61,458 nucleotides of DNA, from positions 1 to 61,458 of the forward strand of contig JACPQZ010000013.1 in NCBI GenBank assembly GCA_016190205.1, read 5' to 3'. Both the position numbers and the translations under genes were made by a program. The notes below the pieces were generated by a model, which was not told the DNA's origin, searched no databases, and saw only the letters and a program-made list of their open reading frames with translations. This document shows, piece after piece, positions 6,859 to 36,289 of this stretch. How positions within the stretch are numbered: position 1 is the first letter of the stretch; every line of letters begins with the position of its first letter. The DNA comes from Candidatus Omnitrophota bacterium. Its GTDB lineage: Bacteria; Omnitrophota; JACPQZ01.

Positions 6859-7832
6859 GGCACAGCCACGCGTCCGCGCTTCAAGTTCCGCCACCAGCCC
6901 TCGTGGGACCGGTACCACGCCACCGTTTCCTTAAGTCCCTGCTCAAAGGGTATCGAAGGAGCCCACCCCAACCGCCTCACCTTCTCATCCCGCATCGCAT
7001 AGCGCCGGTCGTGCCCCGGCCGGTCGCTCACATGCCGGATCAGGGATTCGTCCCGGCCCATCCATCTCAATATGGAACGCGCCACCTCGATATTCTCCCA
7101 CTCATTTCCGCCCGCCACGTTGTAGATCTGGCCGGGAGCGCCCTTTTCCAGGATGCACAAGAGGGCGCGGGCGTTGTCCTCCACGTTGAGCCAGTCGCGC
7201 CGGTAGCGGCCGTCTCCGTAAACAGGCAGGGGTTCTCCATCGATCGCCTGCGTGATGAAAAGCGGGATCATCTTTTCGGGATATTGAAGGGGGCCGTAGT
7301 TGTTGGTGGAACGCGCAATGTGGACGGGAAACCGGTGGGTCTTAAAGTACGAGAGGGCCAAGAGATCGCCGGAGGCCTTGGTCGCAGAATAGGGATTGGT
7401 GGGGGCCAGCGGGTCTTCCTCGGAGGCGGCGGACTCGGCGATGGAGCCGTAGACCTCGTCCGTGCTGACATTCAAAAAGCGCGGGACCTTTTGCCGCCGC
7501 GCCTCTTCGAACAGGGAGTACGCCCCCAAGACATTGGTGCGCACGAATCCCGAGGCATCCTGAATGGAACGGTCTACATGGGATTCGGCGGCGAAATGAA
7601 CCACCGCCTCACACCCTGCCATGGCCTCGCGGACGGCGGCGGGGTCCGCTACGTCACCCCTCACCCACTGGTGCCTCCCGCTCCGGTCTAACTCCTCGAG
7701 AGTCTCCTCATTCCCCGCGTACGTCAGTTTGTCCAGATTGACGACATCCACACCGGGACGCTCCCGAAGGATCAACCGGACAAAATGGCCTCCAATGAAC
7801 CCTGCCCCTCCGGTGACGAGCCACCTCGGCAT
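6855..7832 (-). CDS. rfbB: dTDP-glucose 4,6-dehydratase
   Basis: [50 protein letters not shown]. Confidence 0.95.
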   Translation of the reverse strand: MPRWLVTGGAGFIGGHFVRLILRERPGVDVVNLDKLTYAGNEETLEELDRSGRHQWVRGDVADPAAVREAMAGCEAVVHFAAESHVDRSIQDASGFVRTNVLGAYSLFEEARRQKVPRFLNVSTDEVYGSIAESAASEEDPLAPTNPYSATKASGDLLALSYFKTHRFPVHIARSTNNYGPLQYPEKMIPLFITQAIDGEPLPVYGDGRYRRDWLNVEDNARALLCILEKGAPGQIYNVAGGNEWENIEVARSILRWMGRDESLIRHVSDRPGHDRRYAMRDEKVRRLGWAPSIPFEQGLKETVAWYRSHEGWWRNLKRGRVAVP

Positions 7833-25332: not shown

Positions 25333-26769
25333 CTACAGTATCGGGGTGTGGCCGTGGCCCAAGTGCTCCGCAACCTCTTCGGGCGTGAAGCCCTCGAAGC
25401 TGTGTTCGTTAGGATCGGGATCGGGATCGGGCTCCGGCTCTGGCTGTGGCTCGGGCTCCGGCTGTGGCTCGGGCTGTGGCGGAGGAGGAGGCGGCGGGAT
25501 ATAGTTGTCATAATTTTGATTTTCGAAATCCCGCGGCTCAAAATCCTGATAATTCTGCTCGAAGTCCTGGAAATTTTGCTCAAATTCCTGGTAATTCTGT
25601 TCGAAGTCCTGGTGATTCTGTTCGAACTCCTGGGAATACTGCTCGAACTCCTGCGAAAATTGCTCGAACTCGTTCGAGTACTGCTCGAAGTCCCCCATAT
25701 TTCCCTCGAACTGCTCGGGGCCCATGCCTTCGAACTGCTCTGGGTGAAAGCCCTCGAAATGCTCGGGGTTCATCCCTTCAAACTGCTCGGGGTTAAAGCC
25801 CTCGAACTCCGTCCCGATGCCGTCTTGAAATAGCTCACCCATCTCGCGCATCAAGGACTCGCGGGTAGCGGGGTCAGCCGCCTCCCAGGTCTGCCGCATC
25901 TCATTCATTTGCTCAAATTCGGCCTGGCTGATCTCACCGCTCGCAAGGGCTTCCTGGAGATCCCCCTCGGTGGGGGCTTGCATTTCCCCTATGGGGCCCT
26001 GAAATTCACCCATGGGACCCTGAAATTCCCCGCCGGGGCCGGGACCGCGAAATTCCCCGCCGGGACCGCGAAATTCACCCATCGGGCCTTGAAATTCCCC
26101 GGCGGGACCGGGACCACGAAATTCACCGGGCCCTCCGAACCGCTCGGGACCGCCCCTGTAGGGGCCTTCACCTCGAGAAAAGCCCTCAAAGCCGAGTTGT
26201 GCCATGTGTATTTCGCGCTCGCCGGCCCCCCGGCTCAACGCCTCCCCTTCCCACTCGCGGAACATCTCCCGCGCGTGCTCCATCATTTCCGGAGAAGGCA
26301 TATAGCGCTCGCCGACCTCAAAAGCGGCCATGGCCCTTTCCCCCTCTTGAAGCATAAGCTCCATTTCCTGGGCCGCTTCCGGATCTACAGCCCTAAGCCG
26401 CTCGATCTCCGCCAGGGCCTGGCCCTGGTTAAGCTCAAATTGCTCACGGGCCGCCTCGCGCACCTGGGGCGGGATCTCGACACTAAGATCGCGGCCGGAC
26501 CGCATGATGTCCGCCGCTTCGCGCACCACCGCGGCGCGCTCCATCGGGTCCGTCACGCAGTCCTCCGCCAGATCACGCACGGCCCCCGCAAGCTCCGCGT
26601 CCTGCGCGAGTTCCGGATCGTTCTCGATGTAGGCCTCGACAGCCGCTGCGAGAACCGGGTCCGTGGTTGCCAATTGAGCCTGGGCGGTCTCTAGATATGC
26701 AGGATTTAATACCAGCGCCATAGCGAGCGCGAGGTGCGTCGAAACCTTAAGTGCGGTACCCATATTCAT
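25333..26769 (-). CDS. Secreted acidic multi-repeat protein (GPGGEF, FEGxxPEx and EQYSQEF-type repeats, Pro-rich linker)
   Basis: Signal peptide, AAGGGAGATG RBS; nucleotide and peptide repeats visible; His-containing C-tail. Confidence 0.8.
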   Translation of the reverse strand: MNMGTALKVSTHLALAMALVLNPAYLETAQAQLATTDPVLAAAVEAYIENDPELAQDAELAGAVRDLAEDCVTDPMERAAVVREAADIMRSGRDLSVEIPPQVREAAREQFELNQGQALAEIERLRAVDPEAAQEMELMLQEGERAMAAFEVGERYMPSPEMMEHAREMFREWEGEALSRGAGEREIHMAQLGFEGFSRGEGPYRGGPERFGGPGEFRGPGPAGEFQGPMGEFRGPGGEFRGPGPGGEFQGPMGEFQGPIGEMQAPTEGDLQEALASGEISQAEFEQMNEMRQTWEAADPATRESLMREMGELFQDGIGTEFEGFNPEQFEGMNPEHFEGFHPEQFEGMGPEQFEGNMGDFEQYSNEFEQFSQEFEQYSQEFEQNHQDFEQNYQEFEQNFQDFEQNYQDFEPRDFENQNYDNYIPPPPPPPQPEPQPEPEPQPEPEPDPDPDPNEHSFEGFTPEEVAEHLGHGHTPIL

Positions 26770-26793: not shown

Positions 26794-27888
26794 TTACATA
26801 GGCTGCGGTTCGTATTCCTCTGGATTAGGCCTTTCCTCCACCTCGACCGGTTGATCAAAATCGAGGTCGAGTTCGATGGTCTCATGCTCGTATTCCGGCG
26901 CGTCGTACTCGTGCTCCAACTCTGGAGTTTCGTAGTCCGCCTCCGGGGCTTCGTAATCCGGCACCTCTGACTCATTTTCGGCCGCCTCAAAATCGCTTTC
27001 TACTGCCTCGTATTCGTGGTCCAGCCCCTCATACTCATTTTCCATGGCTTCGTATTCGTGCTCCATGGTCTCGAAGTCGTGTTCCGCTGAAGGTGCTTCG
27101 TAGTCCGATTCCTGGGCCTCGTGATCTGTCAATCCCTCCATCTGGGATTCGTTCTCTTCTCCCGGATCTCCGTAAAAATCTGATGGCTCGTACTCGTCAT
27201 TCCGAAGCGCGTCTTCTTCCCCACTGTAATCCACCCACTCCGATGGCTCGCTATTTTCCAAGTATTCGTTCTCCAACTCAAAACCAGAGTCCCGGAGCTC
27301 GCTCCCCCACCGCTCCTCCATCTCTTGACGGAACTGCTCGAATTCCTCCGGAGCAAACTCTCCGTGCTCTTCGCCCGTGAAGGGGTTCTCCGTCTCCCAC
27401 TGCTCTTTCATGATGGCCTGTTCCCCGGGGGTCGCGTTTTCGTACTGCTCCCACATCGCTTTTTGCTCGTCCGTCATCTCTCCAGGCAGTCCCTCTCCAC
27501 CCTGGCCGTATGGGTCAAACCCCTGATTTTCGAAGATCGGATATCCACCGCCAGGCAGGGTCACCCCCTCCGGCAGCAGGCCTCCCTGAGTCAGGAGCTC
27601 CGGGGTACCCTCTCCCAGGTTTCCACCTTCACCTTCCTGGCGGAAAGACTCCATGGCATCACGGGCAAGGGCCTCCGCTTCTTCAAGGCTTAATCCATGC
27701 TCCGCTTGCAAGTTAGCGACGAGGTCCTCGAAGCTCACCCCCTCTGCCCCACCCTCGGATAACGAGGCGGCATCGGGACTCACCGCATCCTCTGCCTCAT
27801 CAGCCGCTTGAACGGCGGGTGCACCTAAAAGAATTAAACCCAAAATGAGAACGCTCAAAACTTCCTTCAGCCACTCTGTACGGCTCAT
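26794..27888 (-). CDS. Secreted Glu/Asp-rich low-complexity protein with HEYEA-type heptads
   Basis: GAGGAGAG RBS, signal peptide ending AVQA, E/D-dominated body with few K/R. Confidence 0.8.
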   Translation of the reverse strand: MSRTEWLKEVLSVLILGLILLGAPAVQAADEAEDAVSPDAASLSEGGAEGVSFEDLVANLQAEHGLSLEEAEALARDAMESFRQEGEGGNLGEGTPELLTQGGLLPEGVTLPGGGYPIFENQGFDPYGQGGEGLPGEMTDEQKAMWEQYENATPGEQAIMKEQWETENPFTGEEHGEFAPEEFEQFRQEMEERWGSELRDSGFELENEYLENSEPSEWVDYSGEEDALRNDEYEPSDFYGDPGEENESQMEGLTDHEAQESDYEAPSAEHDFETMEHEYEAMENEYEGLDHEYEAVESDFEAAENESEVPDYEAPEADYETPELEHEYDAPEYEHETIELDLDFDQPVEVEERPNPEEYEPQPM

Positions 27889-27950: not shown

Positions 27951-27977
27951 AAAATAGTATGGTTAAGCTTTAACCAC

Positions 27978-28060
27978 CTGGCAACTGGCTATCCGCCAAA
28001 CAGCGCGGCGGACCCTATAGCTTTGCGCCCCCGCCTTACGACGGGTTTGCCCTTTTCAGG
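27978..28060 (-). promoter_or_regulatory. c-di-GMP-I (GEMM) riboswitch aptamer
   Basis: Minus strand GGGCAAACCCGTC-GTAA-GGCGGGGGCGCAAAGCTATAGGGTC...GATAGCCAGTTGCC: GGCAAAC, GNRA-capped stem, CGCAAAGC and AGCCAG-TGCC hallmarks. Confidence 0.92.
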
Positions 28061-28159: not shown

Positions 28160-28432
28160 TTATTCCTCCCGTACCGGGCGCTCTACCTCGCGCCCTTCGG
28201 TCCCCACATCCTCTTGGGGGGTTTCAGCCAACTCCTCACGCCTTCCTGAAAGAAGGGCCCGAAAACCACGAACGAGCCTCTCCTTGAGTTCGGCGATGGA
28301 CCCGCGCTCCCCCGCGCCCGCGTTTTTGATCGCAGATAATGCCCGGCTGCCACCACTATCCTGTGCGTCTGCGCTTCCACAGAAAAAGATAAGGGCCAAG
28401 CTCAACATGACCAGCGGGACAACGCGGCGCAT
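28160..28432 (-). CDS. Small secreted hypothetical protein
   Basis: AAAGAGGG RBS plus ATG 28432, signal peptide MRRVVPLVMLSLALIFFCGSADA; the longer ORF-track N-terminus is repeat-derived. Confidence 0.65.
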   Translation of the reverse strand: MRRVVPLVMLSLALIFFCGSADAQDSGGSRALSAIKNAGAGERGSIAELKERLVRGFRALLSGRREELAETPQEDVGTEGREVERPVREE

Positions 28433-28453
28433 ATAGCCCTCTTTTACCCCGTG

Positions 28454-28597
28454 CGTATCTCGTATCTCGTGAAGCGTATCTCGACAGCCCCTTGTCATGC
28501 GAGCCTCGTTCGTATCTCGTATCTCGTGAAGCGTATCTCGCAATCGAATATTACTACGTTTGCGCTTCACGCTTCACGAGCGACGCTTCACGCAACA
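28454..28597. repeat. Heptamer arrays including a duplicated 30-bp block
   Basis: cgtatctcgtatctcgtgaagcgtatctcg at 28454-28483 and 28511-28540; cgcttca-type array at 28563 shares a 25-mer with 20625. Confidence 0.9.
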
Positions 28598-28616
28598 GGC
28601 TACTGAACGTTAAAAG

Positions 28617-28849
28617 AGCCCGCGAGGGGATCTCACGTCGCGCCGGCTCTTAGATCCATCTAATTTGAAACGCCGGCGCTCCCTAAGGGGGGTGCTCGCT
28701 AACAACGCAAATTTCGCGCAGCTACGCACCCCCCTTAGATTCCCCCCTCAACGCTTTCAACCTTGCTCAGGTGGAAAACTCCCGTTTTCCCCCTGAAACC
28801 CCTTTTCCCGTTCGATCCCACTCGCTAAGCAAACCTAGTAAGATAACTA
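28617..28849. other. Structured non-coding element downstream of tRNA-Thr, bounded by copies of the tRNA 3' end (MITE-like or ncRNA)
   Basis: Degenerate direct repeat of the tRNA 3' end at 28617-28632, perfect 16-bp inverted copy at 28810-28825, 13-bp and 8-bp internal inverted repeats. Confidence 0.5.
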
Positions 28850-28922
28850 AGCCCGCGAGTGGGATCGAACCACCGACCTGAGCTTTACGAAAGCCCTGCT
28901 CTACCAGCTGAGCTACGCGGGC
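28850..28922 (-). tRNA. tRNA-Thr(CGT)
   Basis: GCCCGCG acceptor stem, TAGCTCAGCTGGTAGAGCA D-arm, anticodon loop TTCGTAA, GGTTCGATCC T-arm; CCA not encoded. Confidence 0.95.
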
Positions 28923-28931
28923 GTTAAAAAC

Positions 28932-28954
28932 CGTACTTCGAACTTCGTACTTCG
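28932..28954. repeat. Heptamer array (CGTACTT/CGAACTT)
   Basis: cgtactt cgaactt cgtactt cg; exact 16-bp inverted copy at 33825-33840. Confidence 0.8.
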
Positions 28955-28967
28955 GGCAATCTTCTGG

Positions 28968-29459
28968 TTATAGCTTCTTCGCGATCGCGGTGTAAACCTC
29001 CTCGGCGAGCTTCTCCCGCGGCAGAAGGTTCTTGCGTGCCGTAACACGCATCTTGGTGGATGCCTCGGTGATCTTGACGAGCTCAACGGTCACGTCCGTG
29101 TCAGCAACCTTTCCTTTTAGGACGCCTCCCGCCTCATCATCGGAGGTGAGCGTCCCCTTTTCCTCAAGCACCGCCTTGGCCGCCTTCCAAATGCGGTCAT
29201 ACTTGGCGTCCGAAAAACCCTCCGCGCTCCCCTGGACCATGGCGTAGGTCCCGGCCGCGGCCCCGGCGCCCACGAGGGCGAGGGCGCAACCTGATGTGGT
29301 CAACGCAATACAGGACAGAAGGATCAAAACGAGCTCTAAGCTGCCGCCTCGCGTGCAGCACCTTGCGGCTTGAGGAAGTTGACTATGGACAGTGGACAGC
29401 GGACCCACGACGGACGACGGACGACGGACGACGGACGGGACAATTCTATTTGCTATCAT
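28968..29459 (-). CDS. DUF3568-like lipoprotein
   Basis: TSGCALALVGAGAAAGTY lipobox region and VTVELVKITEASTKMRVTARK; start uncertain because a heptamer array lies in the 5' part. Confidence 0.7.
   Translation of the reverse strand: MIANRIVPSVVRRPSSVVGPLSTVHSQLPQAARCCTRGGSLELVLILLSCIALTTSGCALALVGAGAAAGTYAMVQGSAEGFSDAKYDRIWKAAKAVLEEKGTLTSDDEAGGVLKGKVADTDVTVELVKITEASTKMRVTARKNLLPREKLAEEVYTAIAKKL
29381..29437. repeat. Heptamer array (GACGGAC/GACAGTG)
   Basis: gactatg gacagtg gacagcg gacccac gacggac gacggac gacggac gacggga. Confidence 0.88.
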
Positions 29460-33963: not shown

Positions 33964-34036
33964 TGCCGAGGCCCAGAATCGAACTGGGGACGCACGGCTT
34001 TTCAGGCCGTCGCTCTACCGACTGAGCTACCTCGGC
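33964..34036 (-). tRNA. tRNA-Phe(GAA)
   Basis: GCCGAGG acceptor stem, TAGCTCAGTCGGTAGAGC, anticodon loop CTGAAAA, AGTTCGATTCT; CCA not encoded. Confidence 0.95.
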
Positions 34037-34927: not shown

Positions 34928-36289
34928 CTAAAAAGGCCCCGGTCGGTCCGGGGCCTTTTTTTTGAACGCAGCCTCAAGGACGTTCAACAAAACCGGATCC
35001 CCGGCCACGCACTGCGCCAAGGCCCGGTGGCCTGCAGGATTTAGGTGCCCGTCCCAGGCGTAGAAAAGGGCCTCCGTCTGCCCTGCACGGCGCATCCCCT
35101 CGAAGGAATTGATGAGCGGGATGCCCGACCGTCTTGAAAAGTCCTCGAATAATTCCAAGGCCCCCCGAGCCTCGTACACCTTCCCCTTTTCAAATCCGAA
35201 AGACGTCCTGCCCTCCGACCACTCGTCAGGCCCCACGTTAACGCCGTAGGGGTAGATCCCGATCAACAAGGGAATGCCATGCTCATGCAACAGGTCCCGG
35301 ATCATCAGAATATATTTCTCGCTGACCGCCCAGTACGCCTTAAGAGATTCTGCCGTCCCGCCGTCGCGCAGGAGGAGCAGACGGTCGTTGTCCAGCACGG
35401 CATGGACGGCCTCGCGGCCCTCCTCGCGGGCCTTGAGCCGGGCGATCGCCACCTTGGCCGTCTCACCGGCGAGTTTCGCCCGGAGGTACCCCGCAAGCCC
35501 CAGGATGCGTATTTTCTGAAAGGTGCGGACCCCTTTGGTGTGGATATATTTGGCCAATGCAGACCGGTTCTGGATCCACTCCCAGCGGCTGAAACGCCCG
35601 TACGTGTACTGCGGGTCGCACCTTAAAATCCGGCCGTCCTCATCGAAGATCAGATTCTTTTGATACCAGTAATCGTCCCTTAAATCTCCCCAGTCATACC
35701 ATAAAATAACCGCGTCGGGGTGAAACTCGAGGAAATCGTCCCTCAAAGAAATATAATGAAGGGTGGGAGAATAGCTGGAGACGCCCGCATTGACCACCTC
35801 GACCGGAAACCCCCGCTCGTTGAGATGCTCGCCCGTGAGATACGCAAAGGTCTCTTCGTCCCGCACCGGAAAGCCGAACGTGAACGAATCGCCCAGCATG
35901 AGGACGCGCACCGTATCGCGGGACACAATCGCGGAGGGCTCCTTCCCCCTCAGACCAAAACGGTTGGTGGTGATGTGCACGTCGAACTCTTTCGAGGTGT
36001 AATGATACGTCGTGGAGGGTTTCAACCTATGATGATAGTGGGGGTCTTCGATACCGGCGCTCACTGTCCAGCGCTTGACCCAGAATACCCGGAATCCGGC
36101 CTCCGCAATGAGGAGGGATACGAGGACGGAAAGTGCCGCGAGCACCAGACGCAAAAGCCGTCGCTCGGGTCTCGGGCCTTGGGTCCCGGGGCTTGGGTCC
36201 CGGGGCTTGGGTCTTGGGGTTCGGCTTTCGATACCCGATACCCTATACCCGATACCCGGACTACGCACCACGCTGTACGCTGTACGCAC
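34928..36289 (-). CDS. Membrane-anchored SGNH/GDSL hydrolase (SxtL-like)
   Basis: TM anchor, TNRFGLRG, block I LGDSFTFG, NAGVSSY, C-terminal DGHLNPAGH; start uncertain (GTG 36289 reads through a heptamer array). Confidence 0.82.
   Translation of the reverse strand: MRTAYSVVRSPGIGYRVSGIESRTPRPKPRDPSPGTQGPRPERRLLRLVLAALSVLVSLLIAEAGFRVFWVKRWTVSAGIEDPHYHHRLKPSTTYHYTSKEFDVHITTNRFGLRGKEPSAIVSRDTVRVLMLGDSFTFGFPVRDEETFAYLTGEHLNERGFPVEVVNAGVSSYSPTLHYISLRDDFLEFHPDAVILWYDWGDLRDDYWYQKNLIFDEDGRILRCDPQYTYGRFSRWEWIQNRSALAKYIHTKGVRTFQKIRILGLAGYLRAKLAGETAKVAIARLKAREEGREAVHAVLDNDRLLLLRDGGTAESLKAYWAVSEKYILMIRDLLHEHGIPLLIGIYPYGVNVGPDEWSEGRTSFGFEKGKVYEARGALELFEDFSRRSGIPLINSFEGMRRAGQTEALFYAWDGHLNPAGHRALAQCVAGDPVLLNVLEAAFKKKAPDRPGPF
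34930..34963. terminator. Bidirectional intrinsic terminator
   Basis: aaaaaggccccgg-tcggt-ccggggccttttttt between convergent genes. Confidence 0.85.

What the first reader, a model, noticed from the sequence alone, without database searches (positions are those of the whole stretch)
28617..28870. Structured element behind tRNA-Thr carrying both a direct and an inverted copy of the tRNA 3' end
Seen: 28617-28632 matches the tRNA 3' end at 16 of 17 nt in direct orientation, and 28810-28825 is a perfect 16-bp inverted copy of the T-arm/acceptor segment (28855-28870). Between them are 13-bp (28683-28695/28726-28738) and 8-bp (28640-28647/28672-28679) inverted repeats with G/C runs, and no ORF. Established: integrative elements duplicate tRNA 3' ends. 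Inference: a minimal non-autonomous tRNA-targeting element or a co-transcribed ncRNA; the antisense copy could refold the pre-tRNA and modulate its maturation.
Basis: partly seen in the sequence, partly recalled or inferred. Interest (0 to 1): 0.65.

Follow-up and report, generated by a model that had tools for sequence, protein, structure and literature searches.

The report
Hairpin element riding tRNA gene ends
Behind this tRNA-Thr gene sits one copy of a widespread, gene-less, tightly folding DNA element of Omnitrophota bacteria; its two arms always match the tail of the tRNA gene it follows, and I found no described mobile element or RNA family with this design.

Summary
tRNA-Thr(CGU) lies on the minus strand at 28922..28850. 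It is followed by a 24-nt spacer (S), a perfect 16-nt antisense copy of its T-arm/acceptor (X', 28825..28810) and a 175-nt hairpin-rich core. Then come a 16/17 direct copy of its 3' end (X, 28634..28617) and a T-run.

It is not a one-off. About 14 of 35 tRNA genes in this genome carry the same layout, with one of two core families. Family B is the one seen here and behind tRNA-Gly(CCC). Family A sits behind at least eight other tRNAs. A covariance model of family A hits 84 of 301 Omnitrophota genomes, almost always directly behind a tRNA (28 isoacceptors). X' and X are always tailored to that tRNA.

Cores covary strongly. They cluster by genome rather than by tRNA, form tandem arrays, and show filled, empty and decayed states at one orthologous tRNA-Ser locus.

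There is no Rfam match and no ORF. Reverse transcriptase, integron integrase, IS200-type and IS110-type enzymes show no association.

Best reading (about 0.55): a non-autonomous mobile hairpin element that recombines at the tRNA 3' end. Its enzyme, and the way its arms are rewritten, are unknown. Main rival: a co-transcribed regulatory RNA.

The parts
28850..28922 (-). tRNA-Thr(CGU), intact; its last 17-21 nt (28850-28870, T-loop to discriminator) are the segment X that is copied
   Evidence: ARAGORN; Rfam RF00005, 61.9 bits
28826..28849 (-). Spacer S (tagttatcttactaggtttgctta), AT-rich, between the tRNA end and X'. In other copies S is 5-77 nt or more, and it travels with the element
   Evidence: the identical S at the two tRNA-Ser loci shows that S is element-borne
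28810..28825 (-). X': a perfect 16-nt antisense copy of tRNA positions about 53-68 (T-loop, T-stem 3' strand, first acceptor bases)
28635..28809 (-). Family-B core: three conserved hairpins (28767-28796; 28683-28738; 28640-28679) plus conserved single-stranded blocks (GGGAAAAGGGG, GAGGGGGGAATC, TTAGGGAGC, GCGACG)
   Evidence: 79% identical paralogue at C34:53441-53625; two-sequence fold with 10 compensatory pairs; nine-member alignment; covariance model R1 hits in 10 other genomes
28617..28634 (-). Distal X: a direct copy of the tRNA 3' end (GAGATCCCC-TCGCGGGCT; 16/17 over the last 17 nt). It pairs with X' to close the element
28610..28616 (-). T-run (CTTTTAA on the minus strand) right after distal X. 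Together with a small hairpin it is the only terminator-like site in 28300-29100
   Evidence: site 28637..28621 on the minus strand, followed by GGCTCTTTTA

Best explanation
The 233-bp stretch is one old copy (family B) of a class of small ORF-less repeat elements that lodge directly behind tRNA genes throughout the phylum Omnitrophota.

Shown: every copy has the order tRNA(...X) - spacer S - X' - conserved folded core - X. X is the last 16-21 nt of that particular tRNA, from the T-loop (C56 in family A) to the discriminator or CCA. X' is its reverse complement. On the tRNA-sense strand the element therefore folds into a long hairpin whose closing stem reproduces the duplex 3' end of the tRNA gene. 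The tRNA itself stays intact. The repeat unit in tandem arrays is X-S-X'-core with one extra X at the end, which is the arrangement expected for recombination within X as an att-like identity segment. Only the core is shared between copies in one genome; S, X' and X differ with the tRNA.

Inferred: it is a non-autonomous mobile DNA element that enters and leaves at the tRNA 3' end as a folded single strand. The stem would mimic the target, the logic used by CTX-phage attP and, for folding, by integron attC. It would be served by a trans-acting or host enzyme that is not yet identified. The arms would be rebuilt from, or selected to match, each new tRNA. The copy in this window is probably no longer active.
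For: - Own genome: 13 of 33 testable tRNAs have an exact cognate inverted copy of at least 12 nt within 80 nt downstream, against 4 of 1121 non-cognate pairings. Nine also have a direct copy of at least 14 nt.
- The family-B paralogue behind tRNA-Gly(CCC) has a 19-nt X' and a 23-nt X matching tRNA-Gly, not tRNA-Thr.
- Family A: 7 own copies give 43 pairs, 21 of them compensatory.
- Covariance model R2 hits 84 of 301 Omnitrophota genomes. At least 25 of the 29 best loci and 65 of 77 further hits lie directly behind a same-strand tRNA. These cover 28 isoacceptors, with cognate X' and an exact 18-21-nt X.
- Mobility-type behaviour: perfect tandem units in L111 and L120. Cores at different tRNAs of one genome are 95-100% identical, and the identity block stops exactly at the core ends.
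- S and X' are identical at the two tRNA-Ser loci. At Ser-cga, X' matches Ser-gct with 0 mismatches and its own tRNA with 1.
- The orthologous tRNA-Ser(UGA) locus in one genus is filled in 8 species, cleanly empty in 3 and decayed in 3-4.
- Folding strand: in the core, G-T pairs outnumber A-C pairs about 45 to 13 on the tRNA-sense strand. The sense strand folds at -54.1 kcal/mol against -42.6 for the antisense strand.
- The apical loop is a C(GNA)G triloop. GCGAAGC occurs in 14 of 76 copies against 0.44 in shuffles. From my own knowledge, this is the classic very stable DNA mini-hairpin.
- No Rfam family matches either core.
Against: - No recombinase can be tied to the element. The own genome has only XerC-like and XerD-like tyrosine recombinases plus an IntI-like fragment.
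- Integron integrase is found in 14 of 301 genomes, and only three of those (two of them weak family-A hits) carry the element.
- Y1/HUH transposases are found in 238 of 301 genomes but show no enrichment: 16 of 84 element-positive genomes lack them.
- Reverse transcriptase is absent from the own genome and from 9 of 13 genomes with near-identical copies. IS110-type enzymes occur in 3 of 14.
- How X' and X are rewritten at a new tRNA is unexplained. Gene conversion among old resident copies could also make cores cluster by genome.
- For this exact tRNA-Thr locus no relative was found, so there is no empty-site allele.
- No circle junction or expression data are available.
- The core is better conserved than S between orthologous copies, about 93% against 65% by eye. 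This could mean a host function.
Confidence: 0.55

Rival explanations
1. A functional, co-transcribed 3'-trailer RNA. The tRNA promoter reads through S, X', core and X, and transcription stops at the T-run. X' can pair either with the tRNA's own 3' half, which blocks folding and maturation, or with the distal X, which frees the tRNA. This is the three-part logic of an attenuator or riboswitch, with the conserved core as sensor or protein-binding platform.
For: The element is always on the same strand as the tRNA and directly behind it. The G-U over A-C bias is on the sense strand. Covariation is strong and unpaired blocks are conserved. The RNA minimum-energy fold of tRNA plus element pairs X' with the tRNA's T-arm/acceptor. 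A T-run follows distal X here and in many copies. S contains no terminator in this window. The core is more conserved than S between orthologues.
Against: Empty and decayed alleles occur at an orthologous tRNA within one genus. Truncated copies occur in the own genome behind Glu-ctc, Lys-ttt and Pro-cgg. Tandem duplicate units exist. Only about 28% of genomes, and a varying subset of tRNAs, carry the element. The C(GNA)G triloops fit DNA rather than RNA hairpins. In several copies S holds a terminator-like hairpin ahead of the element. An RNA role also does not explain how the same core reaches 28 different tRNAs. No expression data could be obtained.
Confidence: 0.2
2. No dedicated machinery at all. 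The elements are by-products of host replication and repair at highly transcribed tRNA genes. Fold-back and microhomology-mediated template switches in the conserved T-loop would copy X backwards (giving X'), then copy a core from another locus, then return to X. Quasi-palindrome correction, gene conversion and unequal crossing-over would keep the arms and cores concerted.
For: No tested enzyme family associates with the element. The inner borders of identity sit exactly in the universally conserved T-loop, while the outer border of X' and the length of S vary. Direct repeats often extend past the tRNA into S.
Against: This needs three coordinated template switches, repeated many times in many lineages. 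It does not explain purifying selection and covariation in the core. Distal X matches the tRNA beyond the part covered by X', so hairpin-templated correction alone cannot maintain it.
Confidence: 0.13
3. An ordinary scar of integrase-mediated genomic islands: attL and attR of a prophage or island that integrated into the tRNA 3' end and later lost nearly all its interior (a cis-mobilisable-element-like remnant).
For: Direct repeats of the tRNA 3' end are the hallmark of such integrations. Earlier notes on this genome describe islets with tRNA-Asp end copies.
Against: The same approximately 110-190-nt structured core recurs at 28 isoacceptors in at least 84 genomes. An inverted target copy is always present, and hairpins covary. 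The own genome has no integrase beyond the XerC/D-like proteins. The core motif is absent from viral contigs.
Confidence: 0.05

Closest known systems
CTX-phage-type integration (IMEX elements exploiting XerCD at dif)
   Same: By my derivation from the published mechanism, a single-stranded element folds a hairpin from two inverted copies of the target site. After one strand exchange and replication, the order is target copy - short loop - inverted copy - cargo - target copy. This is the order seen here: X - S - X' - core - X. Only XerC/D-like recombinases are present in this genome.
   Different: The target here is a tRNA T-loop/3' end, not dif. The arms differ with each tRNA, across 28 isoacceptors. 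The cargo is a 110-190-nt structured core with no genes. No dif-like sequence was seen and no Xer involvement was tested.
tRNA-gene-targeting integrative elements and their integrase-less derivatives (cis-mobilisable elements, satellites)
   Same: They insert at the 3' end of tRNA genes, keep the tRNA intact, have direct repeats of the last approximately 16-23 nt, and accrete in tandem.
   Different: There is no integrase, no arm-type sites and no cargo genes. An inverted target copy and a covarying hairpin core are always present. The same core serves many different tRNAs within one genome.
Integron attC sites
   Same: attC sites are non-coding recombination sites of roughly 60-140 nt that act as folded single strands. 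They show structure rather than sequence conservation and are homogeneous within a genome. In family A the X'|core junction falls at AA|C of the T-loop complement, which corresponds to the G|TT crossover position of attC/attI (my comparison).
   Different: Integron integrase is present in only 14 of 301 Omnitrophota genomes and is not associated with the element. The stems here are copies of the flanking target. No cassette ORFs are present.
REP/REPIN elements mobilised by RAYT (Y1 HUH) transposases, and IS200/IS605 guide-based target recognition
   Same: They are short ORF-less hairpin repeats that act as single-stranded DNA. In IS608, cleavage and target sites are chosen by base pairing with an internal guide, which resembles an X' that pairs with X. 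The own genome has four Y1_Tnp genes.
   Different: Y1 genes show no association with element presence. REPINs are not tied to tRNA ends and carry no target copies. IS608 guides are 4 nt long, not 13-19 nt.

Membership tests
Rfam RNA families (any known structured RNA or ribozyme) | Covariance-model match at or near the gathering score | tested here: not met
   At gathering thresholds the window gives only two tRNAs and a c-di-GMP riboswitch. An E-value scan of 13 loci holding both core families returned nothing but tRNAs and spurious sub-threshold hits.
Tyrosine-integrase genomic island / cis-mobilisable element at a tRNA gene | Direct repeats of the tRNA 3' end flanking the insert | tested here: met
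   16/17 nt here; 17-23 nt exact at most other loci.
Tyrosine-integrase genomic island / cis-mobilisable element at a tRNA gene | A cognate integrase in the element or genome, and a full-length parent element sharing the att region | tested here: not met
   The own genome holds only XerC-like and XerD-like genes plus a 122-aa IntI-like fragment. The core motif is absent from viral contigs.
MITE (miniature inverted-repeat transposable element) | Element-borne terminal inverted repeats that are constant between copies, with a short fixed-length target-site duplication | tested here: not met
   The inverted arms X'/X change with each tRNA, while only the core is shared. The duplicated segment runs from about 16 to more than 50 nt.
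Integron attC / gene cassette | Presence of an integron integrase (IntI) in genomes that carry the sites | tested here: not met
   TIGR02249 exceeds its cut-off in 14 of 301 genomes; only three IntI-hit genomes (G027, G184, G261) are also element-positive, two of them with weak family-A hits.
REPIN/RAYT or IS200/IS605-derived PATE | Co-occurrence with a Y1 HUH transposase | tested here: inconclusive
   Y1_Tnp is found in 79% of all genomes and in 81% of element-positive ones. There is no enrichment, and 16 positive genomes lack it.
Retroelement-derived repeats (retron, group II intron, SINE-like, tRNA-primed) | A reverse transcriptase in genomes with recently spread copies | tested here: not met
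   RVT_1 gives 0 hits in the own genome and is absent in 9 of 13 genomes with near-identical copies.
IS110/IS1111 bridge-RNA (seekRNA) elements | A DEDD recombinase of the IS110 family | tested here: not met
   PF01548 is present in 3 of 14 genomes, including none in the own genome.
CTX-type single-strand hairpin integration (IMEX) | Integrated order: target copy - loop - inverted copy - cargo - target copy | tested here: met
   X - S - X' - core - X is seen at every complete locus. The topology was derived by reasoning, not by experiment.
CTX-type single-strand hairpin integration (IMEX) | Xer-dependent strand exchange at a dif-like site | not testable with these tools
   XerC/D-like genes are present, but no assay is available and no dif-like motif was recognised.

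The most novel reading that the evidence does not exclude
The element is a self-retargeting mobile unit guided by nucleic-acid base pairing. A conserved folded core of about 110-190 nt, acting as single-stranded DNA or RNA, would use the antisense arm X' to pair with the 3' end of a tRNA gene. It would insert there with help from a ubiquitous host enzyme or an unrecognised protein. The arms would be rewritten from the new target at each hop, so one core can colonise any tRNA. That would be a natural, enzyme-light, programmable DNA-insertion system, shared in logic with look-alike elements that earlier unchecked notes of this scan report in Patescibacteria and Thermoplasmata.
Probability: 0.25. 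Interest if true: 0.93.

Novelty: categorically new. Interest (0 to 1): 0.8.

Why it matters
tRNA gene ends are the classic landing pads of phages and genomic islands, and those landings need an integrase with a fixed specificity. Here a tiny gene-less element occupies the ends of up to 40% of the tRNA genes of a genome and occurs in at least a quarter of the sampled Omnitrophota genomes. It never breaks the tRNA, and it carries arms that match whichever tRNA it follows.

If the arms act as guides, or are copied from the target, this would be a new way for DNA to choose and enter a site. It could be of interest for programmable insertion.

If it is an RNA instead, it would be a new class of tRNA-linked regulator in a poorly known phylum. 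Either way it is a large, uncatalogued family of structured nucleic acid that annotation pipelines currently leave blank.

Tried and rejected
- Rfam at gathering and E-value thresholds: no family for either core.
- Chance: rejected by shuffles and by the cognate versus non-cognate control.
- Degenerate tRNA pseudogene for 28617-28700: considered from the sequence and dropped once the Gly(CCC) paralogue showed the segment is element core plus X.
- Simple intrinsic terminator built from X and X': no T-run follows X'.
- Phage or plasmid attP origin: the family-A motif scan of viral contigs gave 3 chance hits, with no covariance-model match and no tRNA nearby.
- Enzyme hunts that found no association: integron integrase, reverse transcriptase, Y1 HUH transposase, IS110 recombinase, extra tyrosine integrases.
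- Empty site for this exact locus: no close relatives in GTDB representatives; the exact-protein look-up found nothing; the metagenome protein scan found nothing; family-B motif scans of genomes and metagenomes found nothing.
- Literature: four full-text searches found no description.
- A tRNA-primed retroelement model (X about the size of a 3' tRNA fragment, X' like a primer-binding site): attractive because 5-6 distal X copies are followed by CCA that the gene does not encode (about 0.8 expected), but dropped for lack of reverse transcriptase.

Full report
THE OBSERVATION

tRNA-Thr(CGU) lies on the minus strand at 28922..28850. Reading that strand downstream of the tRNA gives these parts in order:
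- a 24-nt AT-rich spacer, S;
- GCGAGTGGGATCGAAC (28825..28810), the perfect reverse complement of tRNA positions about 53-68, called X';
- a 175-nt G/C-run-rich core with three strong hairpins;
- GAGATCCCC-TCGCGGGCT (28634..28617), a copy of the tRNA's last 17 nt with one base missing, called distal X;
- CTTTTAA.

The 16-mer occurs only at these two places in the window, against 0.1 expected by chance. No credible ORF overlaps. The tRNA-sense strand folds with X' and distal X as the closing stem: -54.1 kcal/mol as DNA, z = -5.9. The opposite strand folds less well, at -42.6 kcal/mol. The only adjustment is that the tRNA is on the minus strand, so the element trails it.

IT IS A FAMILY, AND THE ARMS FOLLOW THE tRNA

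A BLAST search of the element against its own 1.65-Mb assembly found a 79% identical copy of the core on contig C34. That copy sits directly behind tRNA-Gly(CCC). There the inverted arm (19 nt) and the direct arm (23 nt, perfect) match tRNA-Gly, not tRNA-Thr.

A scan of all 35 tRNA genes showed the same layout behind about 14 of them. Thirteen of 33 testable tRNAs have an exact cognate inverted copy of at least 12 nt within 80 nt downstream, against 4 of 1121 non-cognate pairings. Those four involve near-identical tRNA tails.

Two core families exist:
- Family B occurs behind Thr-cgt and Gly-ccc.
- Family A occurs behind Ser-cga, Ser-gct, Arg-ccg, Gly-gcc, Arg-tcg, Asp-gtc, Gln-ttg and Ala-ggc. 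Truncated forms lie behind Glu-ctc, Lys-ttt and Pro-cgg, and an X'-only form lies behind Trp.

Neither core matches any Rfam family, even at E = 1.

STRUCTURE

Seven own family-A copies give a consensus of 43 base pairs, 21 of which show compensatory changes. In a 77-member alignment the pairs are 2213 Watson-Crick, 75 G-U and 45 A-C. Within the core, G-U outnumbers A-C by about 45 to 13, so the tRNA-sense strand is the one that folds.

The apical loop of the last helix is a C(GNA)G triloop. GCGAAGC occurs in 14 of 76 copies against 0.44 in shuffles. From my own knowledge this is the classic extraordinarily stable DNA mini-hairpin, whereas stable RNA hairpins favour tetraloops. I treat it as a hint for single-stranded DNA, not proof.

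Family B shares conserved hairpins across nine members in six genomes: GGGGAAAA..TTTTCCCC and TTAAGGGAAAACC..GGTTTTCCCTTAA, plus the blocks GGAGC and GCGACG.

DISTRIBUTION

The genome is an Omnitrophota MAG. This comes from earlier notes and from the record titles of related hits.

The family-B model R1 hits 10 other genomes out of 300. True members sit behind tRNA-Met, Thr-cgt, Gly-gcc, Phe and Leu-taa, with cognate arms. A related subgroup lies upstream of tRNAs without obvious tRNA copies.

The family-A model R2 hits 84 of 301 genomes, usually several times per genome. At least 25 of the 29 best loci lie directly behind a same-strand tRNA, with a cognate X' and an exact 16-21-nt X. In 77 further hits from a motif scan of GTDB genomes, 65 do so, covering 28 isoacceptors. 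A few records are labelled Planctomycetia, Verrucomicrobia or Auribacterota. GC-rich chance matches to the motif were rejected by the model.

In family A the inner borders are fixed. X' always ends at the complement of T54 (..TTCGAA or ..TTTGAA, followed by GGGAGC). Distal X always starts at C56 (preceded by GGCGC). The outer border of X' and the length of S vary.

BEHAVIOUR OF THE COPIES

1. Tandem arrays. L111 and L120 carry two perfect units with the form tRNA-(X-S-X'-core)2-X-flank. This is the pattern expected when X is the identity segment of a recombination.
2. Cores cluster by genome, not by tRNA. Eighteen nearest-neighbour pairs are same genome and different tRNA at 95-100% identity. 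Six are different genome and same tRNA.
3. In such pairs the identity block begins exactly at ..GAAGGGAGC and ends at GGCGCC. Even the T-loop bases of the arms differ with the tRNA.
4. S and X' are identical at the two neighbouring tRNA-Ser loci of this genome. At Ser-cga, X' matches Ser-gct perfectly and its own tRNA with one mismatch, so S and X' travel with the element.
5. The orthologous tRNA-Ser(UGA) locus in one genus is filled in eight species and cleanly empty in three (G023, G061, G135). It holds decayed remnants in three or four (G119, G199, G031).
6. Distal X is followed by CCA in five or six loci where the tRNA gene does not encode CCA, against about 0.8 expected. This suggests that the two X copies have different origins.

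These features fit a repeat that spreads, duplicates and decays. They do not fit an indispensable part of the tRNA gene.

SEARCH FOR AN ENZYME

- The own genome (92.8% complete) has only an XerD-like and an XerC-like tyrosine recombinase, plus a 122-aa fragment with an integron-integrase-like C-terminus.
- Integron integrase occurs in 14 of 301 genomes and is not linked to the element.
- RVT_1 reverse transcriptase gives no hit in the own genome and is absent from 9 of 13 genomes with near-identical copies.
- Y1 HUH transposases occur four times in the own genome. They are found in 79% of all genomes and 81% of element-positive ones, so there is no enrichment, and 16 positive genomes lack them.
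- IS110-type recombinases occur in 3 of 14 genomes.
- The family-A motif is absent from viral contigs.

No dedicated enzyme is in sight. XerC/D or another host function remains possible but untested.

MECHANISM: WHAT IS SHOWN AND WHAT IS INFERRED

Shown: the architecture, the arms matched to each tRNA, single-strand structure under selection on the tRNA-sense strand, multi-copy spread, tandem units with one extra X, and gain, loss and decay at an orthologous site.

Inferred: the element integrates by recombination within X at the T-loop/3' end and supplies or duplicates the tRNA tail, so the gene stays intact.

By my derivation, the order target - loop - inverted copy - cargo - target is exactly what single-strand hairpin integration of the CTX-phage type leaves behind. 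In that mechanism the hairpin stem imitates the duplex target. This is why I favour a folded single-strand intermediate.

Unexplained: how one core acquires new X' and X at a new tRNA. I considered three options:
- Templated copying from the target.
- Guide-like pairing that tolerates partial matches, followed by correction. The Ser-cga case shows a one-mismatch arm.
- Gene conversion of cores among old residents.

None is demonstrated. The copy in this window shares only 79% identity with its sole paralogue and has a 1-nt deletion in distal X, so it is probably an old, inactive insertion.

RIVALS

A co-transcribed regulatory RNA remains plausible (0.2). The RNA minimum-energy fold pairs X' with the tRNA's own 3' half. 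The X / X' / X arrangement is attenuator-like, and a T-run follows distal X. Against it stand the empty and decayed alleles, tandem units, DNA-type triloops, and terminator-like hairpins inside S in some copies. Host template-switching without any machinery (0.13) and ordinary integrase scars (0.05) explain less.

COMPARISON WITH KNOWN SYSTEMS AND NOVELTY

The element shares the landing site and direct repeats with tRNA-targeting islands. It shares hairpin logic with CTX-phage attP and integron attC. It shares the ORF-less hairpin habit with REPINs, and the guide idea with IS608.

It fails a defining test for each family that could be tested: no integrase, no constant terminal repeats, no IntI, no RT, no IS110 recombinase, and no Y1 association. 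Four full-text literature searches found no description.

Earlier AI notes of this scan report look-alike elements in Patescibacteria and Thermoplasmata, and the Gly(CCC) copy in this genome. I re-derived the Gly(CCC) and tRNA-Ser observations independently. I did not test the notes on other phyla, so they are leads only.

I rate the class as categorically new, with high interest, while stressing that the mechanism is open.

LIMITS

- No relative close enough to show an empty tRNA-Thr site.
- The filled/empty evidence comes from family A in another genus.
- Genome searches used strict filters and scored few candidates per genome, so copy numbers are lower bounds.

Noticed in passing
window 27976-28060 (-): A c-di-GMP-I-GGC riboswitch aptamer (RF03167, 64.7 bits). 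It lies just upstream of the minus-strand ORF 27888..26794, which encodes a signal-peptide-bearing, extremely acidic E/D/F-repeat protein. A second similar acidic repeat protein is encoded at 26769..25333.
   Followed up: no
window 28447-28483, 28504-28540, 28563-28594: Two 37-nt direct repeats (CCYCGTKCGTATCTCGTATCTCGTGAAGCGTATCTCG) and an inverted array of CGCTTCACG units lie between the element and the next gene. Near-identical pieces recur on at least eight other contigs of the genome (C33, C37, C31, C70, C74, C11, C7, C28), so this is a separate interspersed repeat family.
   Followed up: partly
window 28934-28955: A short heptamer array (GTACTTCGAACTTCGTACTTCG on the minus strand) lies directly upstream of tRNA-Thr. 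Similar short-unit arrays flank other tRNA loci, for example the CGGTGATCGGTTATCGG arrays on C34, C28 and C70.
   Followed up: no
G000:C70 about 36030-36200, and C28 about 7560-7650: A palindromic repeat built of CGGTGATCG/CGATAACCG units is inserted inside the last helix of the family-A element behind tRNA-Asp. It also sits between two copies of the element's 3' end behind tRNA-Arg(CCG). These are nested insertions of a second repeat family into the first.
   Followed up: no
G000:C48:4712-5077 (-): A 122-aa open frame whose C-terminus (..[34 protein letters not shown]) looks, from memory, like the tail of an integron integrase. It is apparently a pseudogene fragment. Intact integron integrases occur in only 14 of 301 Omnitrophota genomes.
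   Followed up: partly
G000:C32:10185-11045 (+), and C34, C13, C66: Four Y1_Tnp (IS200/RAYT-like) genes in a 1.65-Mb genome. The C32 copy is flanked by a perfect inverted repeat of about 25 nt (GGGGTCAGGTCTTGCATTATCACAT), as RAYT genes often are. The family occurs in 79% of Omnitrophota genomes.
   Followed up: partly
L031, L032, L035, L038, L039, L041, L042, L044 (other Omnitrophota genomes): A subgroup related to family B (..GGAAAAGGGGGGTGTTGGGGGAAA..TTTCCCCCAAC..) lies 45-100 nt upstream of tRNA genes (Pro, Phe, Met, Leu, Glu). It is closed by its own long stem and has no obvious copy of the tRNA end.
   Followed up: no
L215 (G085) and L223 (G029), tRNA-Ser(UGA) locus: The tRNA is followed, after about 95 nt, by a second and longer copy of its 3' part (variable arm, T-arm and acceptor, with CCA in G029) but no family-A core. 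This is a different kind of 3'-end replacement at the same hotspot.
   Followed up: no
window 33964-34036 (-): The second tRNA of the window, tRNA-Phe(GAA), has no inverted or direct copy of its end within 450 nt downstream. It serves as an internal negative control.
   Followed up: yes
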